In this document: positions 3,139 through 56,550 of the stretch, one piece after another
Layout of the letters: each line of letters begins with the position of its first letter
Position numbering within the stretch: the first letter of the stretch is position 1
Assembly (NCBI GenBank): GCA_965279515.1
Contig: CBDIID010000003.1
Coordinates: 4,224,001 to 4,288,000 of the forward strand
Direction of reading: 5' to 3'
Source: Turneriella sp.
GTDB lineage: Bacteria; Spirochaetota; Leptospiria; Turneriellales; Turneriellaceae
DNA: 64,000 nt
Program-made: the position numbers and the translations under genes
Notes under the pieces: generated by a model
Databases searched by the model: none
The model's input: the letters and a program-made list of their open reading frames with translations, nothing else
What the model was told of the DNA's origin: nothing

Positions 3139-4877
3139 GCCGCGTTTGTTACAGCGACCGCGAGACCTGCGAGGTAGCGGCGGCTCATCTGGTGGAAGTA
3201 CGGGAATACTTTCGCCTTCGACGCCGCAATGTCGCTGATGTTTTTCTGCTTCGCGATCTGCAGTTGTTGCGCAAGCAGTATCGAGACGTAGATGTGAGCG
3301 AATGCCGTAACCATATCGATGGATACGGCTTCTTTCTCGGCGCGTTCTTTGTACTGCGGTACGAGTTTCGCCAGGGTATCTACATCGGCATTCAGCCCGG
3401 TTTTTTGCGCCGCGTCGCTGAGCTTGTTGATTTCACCACGCAGGTGTGCCAGCAAGAAGCCGTTTTCACGCAGGCCTTCGACGATACCGCCGATCGCAGC
3501 GACCGCCTGAAGCTGTGTTGTGCCTTCGTAGATCGTGCAGATACGCGCGTCGCGGTAGATTTTCGCGATGTCGTATTCTTCGGTATAACCCGAGCCACCG
3601 AAGATTTGCAGTGAGTGGTAGGCCACAAAATTGGCGTATTCGCTGCAAAACAGCTTCGCTGTGGGAGTCAGGAGTTTCGCGAGTTTATCGAGACGAACGA
3701 CATCTTCGTTCTTACGTGCCGCGCGCTCGTCGCTTTCTTTGATGAGTTTTGCGGAGAGGCCGTCGTAGTGATCGACGACTTCACAGGCGCGGTATACCAG
3801 CGCCCGCATGCCCTGGATATAGGCTTCATTGTCGTCGAGAATCCGGCGGACGGCGGCAAGTTTATCGATCGTGGCGCCGAACTGCACGCGCTCTGAAGCG
3901 TACTTGATACCTTCGGCATGGGCGGCTTGCGCGATACCCAAAGACTGTACGGCGATGCCCATGCGTGCACCGTTCATCATCCCCATCGCATAGCGTATGA
4001 GGCCTAAACCTTCTTCGCCGATGAGTTCAGCCTTGCTGTTTTCAAACACGATTTCGCAGGTGGGAGAGATATGGAGGCCCAGTTTCTCTTCGATGCGTGC
4101 GACTTCGATATCGTTGCTGTGCACGAGAAAAAAGGACAATCCTTTCGCGCCCGCACCGCCGGAACGTGCGAGAGTGAGGATCACACTGGGTTTGTCGCCC
4201 ATGCCGCAGCCGTGGGTGATGAAACGTTTGGTGCCGGTCAGGCGCCAGGCACCGGCATCGTCTTTTACGGCTTTTGTCGCCACGCGCGAAAGGTCTGAAC
4301 CGTAGTTGGGTTCGGTGAGCGCCATGGCTCCTGTGACTTCACCCGCGGACATTTTGGGCACCCATTCGTCGGTCATCTTTTGGCCGCCGAAACGTTCGAT
4401 GACTTCAGCGAGGTTATAACAACCGAGGGCAATACCGAAGGCTGGGTCGGCGCGGGATACCAGCTCCATGACGATGGAAGATGCAGAGAGATTCATACCC
4501 AAACCACCGTGGTGGCGACCCATCGCATAACCTAAGAGACCTGATTGTGTGAAGAGGTCGACGAGGCGTACCATGTCGGGGGGAAATGTAACCTTGCCGC
4601 TGTTAAATTTGAGGCCGTGTTTATCCATCGCACGTGCTGCGCCGGCAACTTCGACACCGGCGAGTTCACCCGTTTGCTGCCATACGGCTTTATAGCCTTC
4701 GACGGCTTCTTCGGTGTTGTTAGGGGCAAATTCAAGATGTTTATCGCCGGTTTTTTTGAATTCGGCGCCGTCTTTAAAGCCTTCTTCTTTGAGCGGAATG
4801 ATCGTCGCCCAGTCGATGAAATGATCCACCGTAAATGCCAGATCTGCATTGTCGTCGAAATAGTTACCTTGTACCAT
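3135..4877 (-). CDS. Acyl-CoA dehydrogenase
   Basis: MALTEPNYGSD, GTKRFIT, KLGLHISPT, QIFGGSGY and IYEGTTQLQ; start placed at ATG 4877 after a GGAGG RBS. Confidence 0.92.
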   Translation of the reverse strand: MVQGNYFDDNADLAFTVDHFIDWATIIPLKEEGFKDGAEFKKTGDKHLEFAPNNTEEAVEGYKAVWQQTGELAGVEVAGAARAMDKHGLKFNSGKVTFPPDMVRLVDLFTQSGLLGYAMGRHHGGLGMNLSASSIVMELVSRADPAFGIALGCYNLAEVIERFGGQKMTDEWVPKMSAGEVTGAMALTEPNYGSDLSRVATKAVKDDAGAWRLTGTKRFITHGCGMGDKPSVILTLARSGGAGAKGLSFFLVHSNDIEVARIEEKLGLHISPTCEIVFENSKAELIGEEGLGLIRYAMGMMNGARMGIAVQSLGIAQAAHAEGIKYASERVQFGATIDKLAAVRRILDDNEAYIQGMRALVYRACEVVDHYDGLSAKLIKESDERAARKNEDVVRLDKLAKLLTPTAKLFCSEYANFVAYHSLQIFGGSGYTEEYDIAKIYRDARICTIYEGTTQLQAVAAIGGIVEGLRENGFLLAHLRGEINKLSDAAQKTGLNADVDTLAKLVPQYKERAEKEAVSIDMVTAFAHIYVSILLAQQLQIAKQKNISDIAASKAKVFPYFHQMSRRYLAGLAVAVTNAA

Positions 4878-26881: not shown

Positions 26882-27252
26882 AGACTGCCCTTAAAATACT
26901 CCTCGTTGCCTATCTCGTTGTGCTGCTCGTGCTGGCCTTTCTGCCGCTCACGGGTTATTATGCCGGGCTCGGATCGCTTCCGGTGATCGGTTTCTATCTC
27001 TACCGGAAAATTATTCTCGAACGCAGCGCCGAAGGCGAGGTGCTGACACGGCCGGTTTTCCTTCTGGCCTGTGTGGTCTTTGTATTCGGTTTTGTGTTAA
27101 ATCTTTTCTGCACGCTCTACACGACATACAAGATGGCCGAGTTCCGCATGGGCATTGAAGAGCAGAAAAAGAAAATATATGGTGAACCTGGGGCCATGGA
27201 TGGCCAGGGTTCGCGCAGCACAGGAGGCGCCTCCGGGCGCGAAACCAAGTGA
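26878..27252 (+). CDS. Hypothetical membrane protein (C-terminal tail encoded by the repeat element)
   Basis: 3 TM; overlaps both neighbours by 4 nt. Confidence 0.65.
   Translation: MKTALKILLVAYLVVLLVLAFLPLTGYYAGLGSLPVIGFYLYRKIILERSAEGEVLTRPVFLLACVVFVFGFVLNLFCTLYTTYKMAEFRMGIEEQKKKIYGEPGAMDGQGSRSTGGASGRETK
27184..27246 (+). repeat. Twin GGA-loop hairpin element, copy A
   Basis: GGCC-ATGGAT-GGCC, then TTCGCGC..GCAC-AGGAG-GCGC..GCGCGAA. Confidence 0.7.
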
Positions 27253-32946: not shown

Positions 32947-35136
32947 CTACTTTTCCGTTAACACTTCAAAGCCGCGCCAGTCGGCCGGTGGGAATTTCAG
33001 GTGCCTTTCGATGCGCTCAAGGTAGAGTTTGAGCGTCTTGTCGGCGGTATTCTCTGCCGCCATTTGCAGGAAGGCCGTCTTGGCATCGCTGAACTTGCCT
33101 TCCTGGTAGAGTGCCAGGGCTTTGGTAAAATCGGCGGCCTGTCTTTGTTTCATGCGCTTCTTCTCATCGCTATCGCTGTTGAAGACCTCGATGAGTCCGA
33201 CCGGTTCGTTCTTGCCTTTGACCGCTACACGATCGACGAGCCGGTAGAGGTACTTTTCTTTCTGCTGAATGTCGTTCCACGAGACGTCGGAGATCAGCGT
33301 ACCCGCACCATAATTTTTCGTGAGGCTTTCAATGCGCGAAGCGAGGTTGACGGCATCGGCGATGACTGTACCGTCCATTCTCTGGTGCTCGCCGATCGTA
33401 CCCAGCATCACGCGGCCGTGGTGCACGCCGATGCCGATTGCAACGGGGAGGAAATTATGCTTCGCGCGGCGGTTATTCCAGTCAAAAACACGTTCATGCA
33501 TCGAGAGCGCCGCCTCAAGGGCATCGGTTGCTGCACCGCTCCGCGGCAAAGAGGGCATCCTGCCCGCCGCGGAGTCAGGGCCTCCGTGCCCTCCAGGAAA
33601 TAGCGCCATCACGGCATCACCGATATACTTGTCGATAAAGCCGTGGTGGTCGCGTATGACCGGACCGACCTTGTCGAGGTATGAATTAATAAAGTCAAAA
33701 TTTTCCTTGGGTGTCATCTTCTCTGACAGCGAGGTGAATCCGCGGATATCTGAAAAGAGCACCGCCATATCGCGCTGTACCTGGTCGCCGAGGTTGACGT
33801 CGAGAATGCTCTTCTTATCGAGCATGGTGAGGAATTCAAACGGCACAAAGCGCCGCGAAGCCGCATTAAATTTAGAAAGGCTTTCGTTTAATGCCTCGGT
33901 TTCATCATGGAGACGTACGAATCGGTTGGCCAGCACGAGCGCCATTGATATTATAAAGAAGATAAAAACATAGGTCAATAGCGGTGGCAGGTTGATTTTC
34001 GCCTGCCCGCTGAGAATATCGAGAATCATCGCTGCCAGCAGAACGACGAAGCTGACAATCATGATGATTGCATCGCGGTTTTTTCGTGCCACTTCGCGGA
34101 ACAGTATGAAAGCAATGCCGATAATGTAAAAGAACCAGATATACGTAACGACATTGTTCTGCAGGAAATCCCAGGTTTTGACATCCGGAGAAAACACCAC
34201 CGCCGCGGCCACGCCTGTGATAATAACATTGGCACCAATCACCGAATAGTCCCAGATCTTCACCCAGCCCGTAACAGGCCACTTGTAATAATGCCGGATA
34301 AAATAATAGAACGAAGGTACTAGCGTGAAGAGCGACAGGTACTGGATGCGTTTCCAGAAATACAGATTTAACCCGTATTGGTATTTAAGCTGCGTGTGCA
34401 GCGCACTGTAGACGACCAGTGCCAGGGCAAACAGCGCAAAATAAAAATTTTCGCGATCATGGCGGCGGCGGATAAAAAACAGGAAAAAATAAAGCCCGAA
34501 GGTCAGGTAACAGACGAGGGCAAGCGAACTCCATAGATTTTGCAGGTAGAACTCACGGTACATAAGCGCTGCCGGCCCGATTTCGGTGCGATCGCGGTAG
34601 ATGCCCAGTTCTTTTTCCAGCACACCCTGAACCTCGACGGCAATCTCGTTGACCCCGGCCTTGAGCGCACCCGCAGGGATCGAGTAGAGCCGCGTCTTAT
34701 CATAGGCCTGCGGTTCGGGCCGGCCCATCTCACCGGTTTCGCCGATCAGCACGCCGTTGAGGTAGGTGCGGTCGCGGTCGTTGATTTCACCCAGGCGGAT
34801 TGCGTACGCCTCGGTGGGTATTTTTTCCAAACGAAAGCGCATGCGGTAGTGGGCGATGCCCAGGCCGCTCATTCCGAGCTGGGGAGCCAGATTCTCCGGG
34901 GTTTTGACGATTTTATAGCCTGCGAATTCATCTTCTGCGACTTTTATTTTTCTGACGAGATTGCCTGCGCTGGGCTGGAATGAAGCGTTTTTTGCATACC
35001 AGATAAAACCGTCCGCCGACGAAAATCCTGCGACTTTTCCCGGCTGAATCTCTTTCGGCACGTTCTCTTCGAGGGCCGCAAGACTACCGCCGCCTGCCAG
35101 AGAGAAGAGGAGCAGAAAGCGCAGTTGTTGTTTCAT
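32947..35136 (-). CDS. 7TM-DISM class III adenylate/guanylate cyclase
   Basis: LFSDIRGFT, DKYIGDAVMALF, GIGVH and DAVNLASRIESL; 7 TM; N-terminal sugar-binding-like domain. Confidence 0.9.
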   Translation of the reverse strand: MKQQLRFLLLFSLAGGGSLAALEENVPKEIQPGKVAGFSSADGFIWYAKNASFQPSAGNLVRKIKVAEDEFAGYKIVKTPENLAPQLGMSGLGIAHYRMRFRLEKIPTEAYAIRLGEINDRDRTYLNGVLIGETGEMGRPEPQAYDKTRLYSIPAGALKAGVNEIAVEVQGVLEKELGIYRDRTEIGPAALMYREFYLQNLWSSLALVCYLTFGLYFFLFFIRRRHDRENFYFALFALALVVYSALHTQLKYQYGLNLYFWKRIQYLSLFTLVPSFYYFIRHYYKWPVTGWVKIWDYSVIGANVIITGVAAAVVFSPDVKTWDFLQNNVVTYIWFFYIIGIAFILFREVARKNRDAIIMIVSFVVLLAAMILDILSGQAKINLPPLLTYVFIFFIISMALVLANRFVRLHDETEALNESLSKFNAASRRFVPFEFLTMLDKKSILDVNLGDQVQRDMAVLFSDIRGFTSLSEKMTPKENFDFINSYLDKVGPVIRDHHGFIDKYIGDAVMALFPGGHGGPDSAAGRMPSLPRSGAATDALEAALSMHERVFDWNNRRAKHNFLPVAIGIGVHHGRVMLGTIGEHQRMDGTVIADAVNLASRIESLTKNYGAGTLISDVSWNDIQQKEKYLYRLVDRVAVKGKNEPVGLIEVFNSDSDEKKRMKQRQAADFTKALALYQEGKFSDAKTAFLQMAAENTADKTLKLYLERIERHLKFPPADWRGFEVLTEK
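33539..33592 (-). repeat. Twin GGA-loop hairpin element, copy B (in-frame within the cyclase domain)
   Basis: Minus strand: AGGGC-ACGGAG-GCCCT-GA-CTCCGCGGC-GGGC-AGGAT-GCCC-TCTTT-GCCGCGGAG. Confidence 0.82.
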
Positions 35137-45474: not shown

Positions 45475-45978
45475 CTATTCTTGTTTGCCGCGGTTGTAAT
45501 CGACCTCAGAGCGGCCAATGCGGATGAGATAATTTTCGGCGTAGGGAAGTTTCGAGACGTCGACGGAGATGAGTTCCTTCACCTCTTTCGCGCTGCGCTC
45601 GTACTGCAGCAGCGCGCTGCCGCTCTGTTCGAGACGCGCGGTTTCCGTAAAATTATGTTTGCGGAAACTCGATTCATAATAGGCGACAATGTCCTTCAGG
45701 TTGTGGTTCGTTTTCTGTAAAATCGTCGACGCACGGCCATCCGTGGCCGCGTCGACCTTGGCACGTCCGTGTGCCATCGGATTATCGACGCGGTAAATTT
45801 CTGCCTGGGGGTAGAGAAGCGAAAGCGAACGGACAAAATCCGGCGCGTCGGAAGGAGAACCTTTGGGCGGTAACTTATCTGACACCGCAATCGCCGTTTC
45901 GGAGTCCTTTTTACCGCACGCGGAAGCCGCCAAGGCAAGTAAGCTGGCGCAAAAAAACGAGGTTATCCGCCTCTGCAT
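45475..45978 (-). CDS. Hypothetical lipoprotein containing repeat copy C
   Basis: Lipobox ASA-C; 1 nt from the AI-2E start. Confidence 0.72.
   Translation of the reverse strand: MQRRITSFFCASLLALAASACGKKDSETAIAVSDKLPPKGSPSDAPDFVRSLSLLYPQAEIYRVDNPMAHGRAKVDAATDGRASTILQKTNHNLKDIVAYYESSFRKHNFTETARLEQSGSALLQYERSAKEVKELISVDVSKLPYAENYLIRIGRSEVDYNRGKQE
45725..45776 (-). repeat. Twin GGA-loop hairpin element, copy C (inside the lipoprotein CDS)
   Basis: Minus strand: TGGCAC-ACGGAC-GTGCCA-AG-GTCGACGC-GGCC-ACGGAT-GGCC-GT-GCGTCGAC. Confidence 0.82.
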
Positions 45979-46683: not shown

Positions 46684-46737
46684 GATGCACGAGGCATCTG
46701 ATAGGCGACGGGCAAGGATGCCCTCTCAAGTCGCCTA
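46684..46737 (+). repeat. Twin GGA-loop hairpin element, copy D (tatA-argB intergenic)
   Basis: GATGC-ACGAG-GCATC-TGA-TAGGCGAC-GGGC-AAGGAT-GCCC-TCTCAA-GTCGCCTA. Confidence 0.82.
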
Positions 46738-46752
46738 ATTTTAGCCAGACAG

Positions 46753-55422: not shown

Positions 55423-55495
55423 GCTGCCTTAGCTCAGCCGGTAGAGCAACTGCCTTGTAAGCAGTAGGTCGTCAGTTCGATTCTGACAGGCAGCT
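55423..55495 (+). tRNA. tRNA-Thr (UGU)
   Basis: GCTGCCT/AGGCAGC acceptor stem, CT-TGT-AA anticodon loop, TTCGA T-loop; CCA not encoded. Confidence 0.96.
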
Positions 55496-55497
55496 CA

Positions 55498-55548
55498 AGA
55501 CACGAGGTCTAGAGGTCGGCGGCGCGCATGGACGCGCTCCGTGCCGAC
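55498..55548 (+). repeat. Twin GGA-loop hairpin element, copy E (tRNA spacer)
   Basis: AGAC-ACGAG-GTCT-AGAG-GTCGGC-GGC-GCGC-ATGGAC-GCGC-TCCGT-GCCGAC. Confidence 0.78.
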
Positions 55549-55561
55549 GACCCAGTCTTAG

Positions 55562-55644
55562 GGGTAGGTGGCCGAGTGGTTAATGGCGCTAGACTGTAAA
55601 TCTAGTCTCTCCGGAGTACGAAGGTTCGAATCCTTCCCTGCCCA
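55562..55644 (+). tRNA. tRNA-Tyr (GUA)
   Basis: GGGTAGG/CCTGCCC acceptor stem, CTAGA-CTGTAAA-TCTAG anticodon arm, long variable arm; CCA not encoded. Confidence 0.96.
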
Positions 55645-55651
55645 CAATTGG

Positions 55652-55690
55652 ATCCCTTGCGTGGAGCACCCACGCAGGGGATTTTTATTT
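55652..55690 (+). terminator. Intrinsic terminator after the tRNA pair
   Basis: ATCCCTTGCGTGG-AGCAC-CCACGCAGGGGAT followed by TTTTATTT. Confidence 0.8.
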
Positions 55691-56462
55691 AAAGCTTAAT
55701 CTCCAGCACGACCGGGCAGTGGTCCGAGCCCATATGATCGTTCAGATGGCGAATGTCTTTCACCGCCTTATACAACGGTTCATCGATCACAAAATAGTCA
55801 ATTCTCCAACCGATATTACGCGCCCGCGCATTTGTGATCACCTGCCACCAGGTATACGATACCTTCTCAGGGTATTTCGTCCGGAAAACGTCGACCCACT
55901 TGTCGGCAACGAGGCGGTCGACCCAGGCGCGCTCTTCGGGGCGAAAACCCACGGTTTTCTCGTTCTCTTTGGGGCGCGCGAGGTCGATCGGCTGGTGCGC
56001 GACATTGAGGTCGCCGGTGAAAATGACCTTGTTCTTCTTCTTACGCAGGTCTTTGATGTACTTGTGGAAATGATCGAAAAACACGAGCTTCTCTTTCCAT
56101 GCGGCGTCGGATTTCCCGCCGTTCGGGAAGTAGTTACCGAAGACGACTAAATCCCCCGCTTTGACGCCTAAAACGCGGCCTTCATGGTCGTTCCACTTCG
56201 GCATACCGCGCAGAATCTCTACCTTCGGAAAGAGCTTCTTCTTGATGAAGACCCCTGTGCCCGAATAGCCGGGTTTCTCAGCGCTGTGGTAATGTGCTTC
56301 ATAGCCCGGCGGATTGACCAGTGCGTCGGAGAGTTGCTCGACCTTGGCCTTGATCTCCTGGATAAAGAGGATATCCGGCTTTTCTTCTTTAATCAGCTTA
56401 TCGAGCTCACCTTTTTTCTCAATGGCGCGGATGCCGTTGACATTGAATGAAATAATTTTCAT
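55689..56462 (-). CDS. xth: Exodeoxyribonuclease III
   Basis: SFNVNGIRA, IQEIK, YFPNG, GDLNVAH, GWRIDY and SDHCP; start 56462. Confidence 0.95.
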   Translation of the reverse strand: MKIISFNVNGIRAIEKKGELDKLIKEEKPDILFIQEIKAKVEQLSDALVNPPGYEAHYHSAEKPGYSGTGVFIKKKLFPKVEILRGMPKWNDHEGRVLGVKAGDLVVFGNYFPNGGKSDAAWKEKLVFFDHFHKYIKDLRKKKNKVIFTGDLNVAHQPIDLARPKENEKTVGFRPEERAWVDRLVADKWVDVFRTKYPEKVSYTWWQVITNARARNIGWRIDYFVIDEPLYKAVKDIRHLNDHMGSDHCPVVLEIKL

Positions 56463-56550
56463 GGTACAAGGATGTACCTTGGTCGGCGGCGACAAGGATG
56501 TTCAAGCCCGCCGACCATGGTACCAGGATGTTACCCAAGGTCGGCGGCGA
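56463..56550 (+). repeat. Twin GGA-loop hairpin element, copy F (1.5 tandem units)
   Basis: GGTAC-AAGGAT-GTACC-T-TGGTCGGCGG-C-GAC-AAGGAT-GTT-CAAGC-CCGCCGACCA-T-GGTACC-AGGAT-GTTACC-CAA-GGTCGGCGGCGA. Confidence 0.82.

What the first reader, a model, noticed from the sequence alone, without database searches (positions are those of the whole stretch)
55498..55548. Element fills the tRNA-Thr/tRNA-Tyr spacer: possible processed sponge RNA
Seen: copy E starts 3 nt after tRNA-Thr and occupies most of the 66-nt spacer, on the transcribed strand. Established: tRNA processing releases spacers, and an excised pre-tRNA spacer (E. coli 3'ETS of leuZ) is known to act as an sRNA sponge. Inference: an abundant, growth-rate-coupled small RNA of about 60 nt with GGA-type loops may be produced here.
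Basis: partly seen in the sequence, partly recalled or inferred. Interest (0 to 1): 0.72.

Follow-up and report, generated by a model that had tools for sequence, protein, structure and literature searches.

The report
Mobile two-hairpin repeat lands behind tRNA
The structured stretch between the two tRNA genes is one of about 100 copies of a tiny two-hairpin repeat that, in this group of spirochaetes, inserts behind tRNA genes and in frame inside protein genes, so it looks like mobile DNA related to the unexplained TwoAYGGAY motif rather than a dedicated sponge RNA.

Summary
The element is real (55497-55552, tRNA strand), but it has one GGA loop, not several. It is one of 98 genome copies of a 55-59-nt unit: two hairpins with CA(N)GGANG/CACGANG loops, freely covarying stems and a 5-nt bulge. 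The family is in 13 of 13 same-genus genomes but in 0 of 10 orthologous Thr-Tyr spacers, which hold unrelated hairpins. Filled and empty sites in three protein genes show exact one-unit (57-nt) in-frame insertions. Between co-directional genes, orientation is random (16 sense, 20 antisense). Best reading: a minimal, mobile, TwoAYGGAY-like repeat that recently landed in this spacer; any CsrA binding is incidental. It fails Rfam TwoAYGGAY membership (no basal stem; 24 vs 43 bits). No mobilising enzyme was found. Expression could not be tested.

The parts
55423..55496 (+). tRNA-Thr(TGT), first gene of the two-tRNA operon
55497..55552 (+). Copy E of the two-hairpin repeat (family register)
   Evidence: descriptor 44.9; model R1 34.4 bits
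55498..55510 (+). Hairpin 1 (P1): 3-4-bp stem, 7-nt cap CACGAGG without GGA; outcompeted in the predicted fold of the spacer
55514..55552 (+). Hairpin 2 (P2): 10-bp stem, 5-nt bulge on the 3' side, 3-bp stem, cap CATGGACG (the only GGA, exposed)
55562..55645 (+). tRNA-Tyr(GTA)
55650..55692 (+). Intrinsic terminator closing the tRNA operon
   Evidence: 15-pair stem with T tail; z -6.7
56463..56550 (+). Second copy plus a partial further unit, abutting the start codon of the exonuclease III-like gene on the opposite strand; absent in 7 of 7 relatives read
33538..33592 (-). Copy inserted in frame (57 nt, 19 aa) in the catalytic domain of an adenylate/guanylate cyclase gene
27191..27245 (+). Copy at the 3' end of an unannotated ORF
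45720..45775 (-). Copy inside an unannotated ORF
46684..46739 (+). Intergenic copy with the same GGA-less loop 1 as E

Best explanation
Copy E is a lineage-specific insertion of a small dispersed mobile repeat, a stripped-down relative of the TwoAYGGAY motif. Shown: the unit is kept by structure and loop words, not stem sequence; it comes and goes at orthologous sites as whole 55-59-nt units, singly or head to tail; it sits in frame in protein genes, in either orientation between genes, and preferentially right behind tRNA 3' ends. Inferred: it moves as a folded single strand (DNA or RNA) whose two capped hairpins are recognised by a host or mobile-element protein not yet identified. It inserts where the target resembles the short stretch between the end of hairpin 2 and the first bases of loop 1, which leaves variable 3-13-nt direct repeats and lets stems drift with compensation. 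tRNA trailers are favoured probably because they are heavily transcribed, often end in the preferred CC, and tolerate inserts. E is transcribed as part of the pre-tRNA and removed during processing; its one GGA loop may bind CsrA in passing, but the locus is not maintained for that.
For: 98 copies in G000, none in controls. Stems 47% identical vs loops 80% among 23 same-length copies. Test not selected on the long stem: 82% of cells paired with a 5-nt bulge vs 29-48% in 10 other registers, 56 loop pairs. Filled and empty sites: cyclase empty in 5 of 8 orthologues, remnant in 1, two units in 2; TatD exactly 57 nt longer, empty in 13 of 13; a RibD-domain gene carries two copies in opposite orientations, site 2 empty in 9 of 9. 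Thr-Tyr spacer: 0 of 10 orthologues match. Orientation in co-directional intergenic regions 16 sense, 20 antisense; both loops with GGA in 9 of 10 antisense vs 17 of 26 sense deep-CDS copies. Exact junction repeats of 7 nt or more in 20 of 128 single copies vs about 1 expected (7 of the 20 repeat all of loop 1, i.e. are array ends). tRNA 3' ends duplicated by 10-12 nt behind the unit in G002, G011 and G113, a member of another family.
Against: No mobilising gene found: 0 of 23 Y1-transposase loci carry the unit, reverse transcriptases are in only 5 of 13 same-genus genomes, no transposase among 62 + 31 neighbouring proteins. 108 of 128 single copies, E included, show no junction repeat of 7 nt or more. 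Sense bias in genes (26 vs 10, p 0.011) and at tRNA ends (17 vs 0), and G-T over A-C pairs (29 vs 14, p 0.03), fit an RNA-level role as well. The cyclase copy shared by G000, G003 and G008 has kept its pairing through changes after insertion, which suggests selection or arm correction at the resident site. Gene calls came from a crude script.
Confidence: 0.68

Rival explanations
1. Distributed CsrA buffer: the repeat is mobile, but the host keeps copies behind highly transcribed tRNAs because pre-tRNA trailers carrying GGA loops titrate CsrA. The dose matters, not the locus.
For: 17 of 173 distinct tRNA 3' flanks carry the unit, all sense, at 10 different tRNA species, each with at least one GGA. 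In G000, 3 of 39 tRNA ends vs 8 of 4456 CDS ends (Fisher p 9.5e-5). Loops match the CsrA consensus and the 18-nt spacing the reported optimum for dimer bridging (PMC7652899 passages). The host flagellin leader has two such loops 18 nt apart. Leptospira CsrA needs GGA (PMC8668096 passage).
Against: 9 of 17 trailer copies have a GGA-less loop, no better than the family overall (34 of 98). Antisense copies keep GGA equally. The host has the FliW protein antagonist next to csrA. The 173 flanks include loci fetched because a model hit lay near a tRNA. 27 of 27 genomes of the sister family f8 lack the unit.
Confidence: 0.15
2. Structural filler: in this genus a long hairpin between tRNAs helps precursor folding or processing, and E is one of several palindromes that supply it. 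Loop words are irrelevant here.
For: All 10 orthologous Thr-Tyr spacers fold into long hairpins of unrelated sequence (-23.5 to -56.5 kcal/mol). Most G000 tRNA spacers of 30 nt or more are hairpins. E folds as one long hairpin, not in the family fold.
Against: Many more distant relatives have 4-11-nt unstructured spacers, so a hairpin is not needed for processing. Accumulation of palindromic repeats explains the pattern without selection.
Confidence: 0.12
3. One reading: the Thr-Tyr spacer yields a stable, dedicated ~60-nt CsrA sponge RNA.
For: Sense orientation; exposed AUGGA loop; ends can pair and might protect the fragment; CsrA-binding sRNAs from stable-RNA operons have a precedent in E. 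coli rRNA operons (PMC8144298 passages).
Against: One GGA only; absent from 10 of 10 orthologous spacers; no RNase E/G found, an RNase J-like 5' exonuclease candidate is present (203 bits, below cut-off).
Confidence: 0.05

Closest known systems
TwoAYGGAY RNA motif (Rfam RF01731; Weinberg et al. 2010, PMC2864571; Li et al. 2026 preprint 10.64898/2026.09.22.753630)
   Same: Two consecutive hairpins, a short one then a longer one, capped by the same loop words, including 7-nt and GGA-less variants seen in Weinberg's alignment; multicopy; some copies in CDS; Csr/Rsm binding proposed, mobility suspected but unresolved.
   Different: No common basal stem and no extensions; 18-nt loop spacing with a one-sided 5-nt bulge; 55-59 nt instead of about 170; best Rfam score 24.4 vs cut-off 43; frequent in-frame insertion and tRNA 3'-end targeting with junction repeats, which I did not see in the passages read.
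Rickettsia palindromic elements (RPE) and intragenic REPs (PMC10969869, PMC3733652 passages)
   Same: Palindromic repeat inserted in frame into unrelated protein genes and between genes.
   Different: RPEs are about 150 bp and recognisable by sequence; this unit is 57 nt, has free stems, and has no terminal inverted repeat or GTAG/CGTC tag.
REP/RAYT systems
   Same: Short dispersed hairpins, tandem arrays, presumed single-strand intermediate.
   Different: No GTAG or CGTC tag; no Y1 transposase locus is flanked by it (0 of 23).
CsrB/RsmZ-type sponges, E. coli RrA/B/F and 3'ETS-leuZ
   Same: GGA hexaloop; origin in a stable-RNA precursor.
   Different: One GGA instead of many; locus not conserved; 3'ETS-leuZ pairs with RyhB/RybB and depends on RNase E.

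Membership tests
TwoAYGGAY (RF01731) | Two sequential hairpins with AYGGAY-type terminal loops | tested here: inconclusive
   E: loop 2 fits, loop 1 (CACGAGG) does not; family-wide 64 of 98 have GGA in both loops; the same variants occur in the published alignment.
TwoAYGGAY (RF01731) | Common basal stem enclosing both hairpins | tested here: not met
   Flank pairing 3.99 vs 3.93 +/- 0.09 in shuffled partners, 50 of 200 shuffles as high, 185 copies.
TwoAYGGAY (RF01731) | Score at or above the Rfam gathering threshold (43 bits) | tested here: not met
   Best in genome 24.4 bits, E not among the 6 hits; no match.
MITE | Terminal inverted repeats | tested here: not met
   Mean 2.3 Watson-Crick pairs between first and last 8 nt over 98 copies.
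MITE | Target duplication of fixed length | tested here: not met
   Junction repeats vary: about 3 nt (TatD), 5 nt (RibD-domain gene), 10-13 nt (tRNA ends and others); none of 7 nt or more in 108 of 128.
REP/RAYT | GTAG or CGTC tag at the hairpin foot | tested here: not met
   3-9 of 98 per tag and end.
REP/RAYT | Copies flank a Y1 tyrosine transposase gene | tested here: not met
   0 of 23 Y1_Tnp loci from 12 genomes.
RPE-like intragenic repeat | In-frame insertion in unrelated protein genes with empty orthologues | tested here: met
   Cyclase, TatD and RibD-domain genes; 36 of 93 collapsed copies deep inside called CDS.
Csr/Rsm sponge sRNA | Several GGA motifs in loops | tested here: not met
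   One GGA in the spacer.
Csr/Rsm sponge sRNA | Host encodes CsrA with intact RNA-binding residue | tested here: met
   PF02599 81.9 bits; Arg at position 44 counted in the translation (R44 importance).
Csr/Rsm sponge sRNA | Stable, abundant RNA that binds CsrA | not testable with these tools
   Needs Northern blot, small-RNA-seq, EMSA or CLIP.

The most novel reading that the evidence does not exclude
The unit is a minimal mobile element that travels as a 55-59-nt dumbbell circle capped at both ends by CA(N)GGANG loops and picks targets by base-pairing its interior with the target strand, which gives one-turn insertions, variable junction repeats, head-to-tail arrays and free but paired stems. 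The same loops mark both ends of the gene cassettes of this genome's integron-like arrays (85 of 87 such hairpins on one strand, although cassette genes run both ways), and the cassette recombination site has an arm with the same tip geometry. One unknown single-strand-processing activity may therefore both spread TwoAYGGAY-like repeats and package DNA into cassettes, while mimicking CsrA sites.
Probability: 0.15. Interest if true: 0.88.

Novelty: new variant of a known kind. Interest (0 to 1): 0.48.

Why it matters
TwoAYGGAY-type elements are widespread and unexplained; the 2026 preprint calls the link between mobility and Csr regulation unresolved. This minimal version gives direct comparative evidence of mobility (exact one-unit filled and empty sites, junction repeats at tRNA ends), adds 19-residue peptides to dozens of proteins, and is small enough to test: circle-junction PCR, CsrA binding and strand of action are simple experiments. 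The shared loop at integron-like cassette ends is a lead on how cassettes are made. As a single tRNA-spacer sponge the finding would be weak.

Tried and rejected
Sequence-level repeat search of the window and BLAST of the spacer miss the family because stems diverge. Rfam: no family for E or for 8 array loci. RAYT/IS200 as mover: rejected. Reverse transcriptase as co-distributed mover: not supported. Neighbouring genes: no transposase in 62 of the 96 genes on my fetched G000 loci that were scanned, nor in 31 of 36 ORFs near distant hits. Replication-strand bias: none (45 of 93 leading). Stop codons do not explain the sense bias in genes (open frames 225 sense vs 225 antisense of 294 each). A universal cut after the CA of loop 1 was considered and dropped: the TatD insertion falls before hairpin 1. 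Expression: no RNA holder listed; laying two guessed-RNA and two DNA contig sets showed no joint or empty allele; neither is evidence on expression. No sigma-70 promoter passed the scan, though a TTGAC hexamer upstream is visibly shared with relatives. RNase Z was inconclusive (best 82 bits vs cut-off 293). Exact-pattern scan of genome contigs: 51 loci, 16 with model scores of 39 bits or more, all spirochaete-labelled; the other 35 (best 29 bits) were treated as chance. Four of 13 same-genus genomes gave no locus with both tRNAs.

Full report
Observation. ARAGORN and Rfam place tRNA-Thr(TGT) at 55423-55496 and tRNA-Tyr(GTA) at 55562-55645, followed by a strong terminator. The spacer holds a two-hairpin unit at 55497-55552 on the tRNA strand. 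Loop 1 is CACGAGG and loop 2 is CATGGACG; the spacer has one GGA. The spacer folds at -28.5 kcal/mol (z -2.35), but as one long hairpin: the family's first hairpin and stem register have probabilities of 0.06 or less, while the GGA loop stays unpaired.

The family. Sequence searches miss it. Loop words capped by 3-bp stems occur in pairs 69 times within 40 nt, 57 of them 25-27 nt apart, against 0, 0 and 1 in three shuffles. A descriptor whose weights I set by hand from those pairs found 98 non-redundant copies at score 28 or more and none in three shuffled genomes or the reversed genome. The layout is fixed: 4-bp stem with a 7- or 8-nt cap, one linker base, 10-bp stem, 3-bp stem with a second cap, and a 5-nt pyrimidine-rich bulge on the 3' side. 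Among 23 equal-length copies stems are 47% identical and loops 80%. In 13 aligned copies 14 of 19 pairs change on both sides; that set was chosen for pairing, so I also tested 56 loop pairs chosen without regard to the long stem: 82% of cells pair with a 5-nt bulge, 29-48% in the ten other registers. G-T pairs outnumber A-C pairs 29 to 14 (p 0.03), so the GGA strand is the one that folds. Six copies lie in the window.

Distribution. A covariance model finds it in 13 of 13 same-genus genomes (22-72 matches, lower bounds because 93 candidates were scored per genome), 1 of 6 other genomes of the family, 3 of 14 of the order and 0 of 27 of the sister family f8, and in 8 of 150 genomes sampled from the phylum, where the hits show the same layout. 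Named records with strong matches are labelled Turneriella, Spirochaetes/Spirochaetota or Leptospiraceae (16 of 51 pattern loci).

It moves. In a cyclase gene of this window a copy adds 57 nt in frame; of 8 orthologues 5 are empty, 1 has an 18-nt remnant and 2 have two units with compensated stems. TatD is exactly 57 nt longer than in 13 of 13 relatives, the nearest 92% identical. A RibD-domain gene carries two copies in opposite orientations. The array next to the exonuclease III-like gene is absent in 7 of 7 relatives read (10 loci fetched; my anchor found 7). Of 93 copies after collapsing arrays, 36 lie deep in called genes (26 sense, 10 antisense), 36 between co-directional genes (16 sense, 20 antisense), 14 in divergent and 7 in convergent gaps (crude gene caller). 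Antisense copies keep two GGA loops as often as sense ones. Twenty of 128 single copies have an exact junction repeat of 7 nt or more, against about 1 expected; 7 of these repeat the whole first loop and are array ends, and 108, E included, show none. The cleanest cases are tRNA-Leu(TAG), tRNA-Arg(TCG) and, in another family, tRNA-Ser(CGA), whose last 10-12 bases reappear behind the unit and pair with the unit's interior. The repeat always lies between the end of hairpin 2 and the start of loop 1 but varies in length, as expected if one turn of a circle were opened in that segment; this step is inference.

The spacer itself. Ten orthologous Thr-Tyr spacers (9 same genus, 1 same family) are unrelated in sequence; each folds into a long hairpin, none has an unpaired GGA and none matches the model. 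Many more distant relatives have 4-11-nt spacers. So E is a recent local arrival. Against a purely random picture, tRNA 3' ends are a hot spot: 3 of 39 in this genome, all sense, against 8 sense and 7 antisense at 4456 stop codons; 2 of 13 co-oriented tRNA spacers and neither rRNA Ile-Ala spacer; and 17 of 173 distinct tRNA flanks in all loci held, 17 sense and 0 antisense, at 10 tRNA species (some loci were fetched because a hit lay near a tRNA, and the strict pattern missed a few copies visible). Nine of the 17 have a GGA-less loop.

CsrA. The genome has csrA beside fliW in the flagellar operon. The loops match the SELEX consensus and the 18-nt spacing matches the reported optimum for dimer bridging (PMC7652899, passages). 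A flagellin leader here has two such loops 18 nt apart, and Leptospira CsrA binding needs GGA (PMC8668096, passages). Sense copies with GGA are therefore likely to bind CsrA if transcribed; E offers one site. No RNase E/G was found, RNase Z was inconclusive, an RNase J-like gene is present below cut-off, and 0 of 39 tRNA genes encode CCA by a crude rule. How and whether the spacer is released intact is open.

Mover. Not found: 0 of 23 Y1-transposase loci carry the unit, reverse transcriptases are patchy, and sampled neighbours are ordinary genes. One lead: the genome's integron-like arrays carry single hairpins with the same loop set about 40 nt before, or 30-43 nt after, their recombination sites; 85 of 87 lie on one strand while cassette genes run both ways, and 61 of the 85 were assigned to a site by a strict pattern. 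The site's bottom strand has an arm ending in a 3-bp stem, GGA loop and 5-nt bulge. This points to recognition tied to recombination geometry, not to messenger RNA, but no protein link was tested.

Comparison. The closest family is TwoAYGGAY: same loop vocabulary in the published alignment (PMC2864571, supplement search and one part of supplement 5), multicopy, CsrA binding proposed and mobility suspected (10.64898/2026.09.22.753630, outline and passages; its supplements were not seen and may show similar variants). It is not a member by test: no basal stem and 24.4 of 43 bits. It behaves like RPEs and intragenic REPs (PMC10969869, PMC3733652, passages) without their ends or tags. Geobacter multicopy elements inside genes are a looser parallel (PMC2700814, passages). 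I found no description of this unit in searches, which cover open papers only. Earlier scan notes report mobile TwoAYGGAY-like repeats in many other genomes, so the class is common and this is a variant.

Verdict. Real element, one-GGA copy, recent insertion of a structure-conserved mobile repeat (0.68). Distributed CsrA buffering by tRNA trailers remains possible (0.15); a dedicated sponge from this spacer is unlikely (0.05). New variant of a known kind; interest 0.48.

Noticed in passing
G000:C3:93000-171000 and 3734000-3805000: Integron-like cassette arrays with about 215-nt folded sites; cassette ends carry single 5-11-bp hairpins with the same loop words as the repeat, 85 of 87 on one strand, and the site has an arm with the repeat's tip geometry.
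   Followed up: partly
G000:C3:3984912-3984965 (L081): Flagellin leader with two CsrA-type loops 18 nt apart, the second over the ribosome-binding site; an antisense copy of the repeat lies 120 nt upstream, and another flagellin gene has an antisense copy upstream too.
   Followed up: partly
L004-L013, Thr-Tyr spacers: Every relative has a different long palindrome in this spacer, one of them (G001, 156 nt) with terminal inverted repeats like a MITE.
   Followed up: no
G000:C3:2667424-2667591, 940790-940881, 1513073-1513160; L175-L179: Degenerate partial copies of the neighbouring tRNA gene, with short inserted repeats, lie in tRNA spacers and trailers across the genus.
   Followed up: no
L002 (G000:C3:2616100-2616560): A 134-aa Y1 transposase flanked on both sides by a short palindrome unrelated to this repeat, a possible REP/RAYT or IS200-like element.
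   Followed up: no
window 56463-56550: The repeat sits antisense directly before the start codon of the exonuclease III-like gene, where the ribosome-binding site should be; several other copies abut start codons the same way.
   Followed up: partly
G000:C3:1300966-1301850: The genome's only reverse transcriptase lies next to a cassette-end hairpin and site, so it is probably cassette cargo.
   Followed up: no
L195 (G002): Seven or more near-identical head-to-tail units inside a protein gene, reading frame apparently kept.
   Followed up: no
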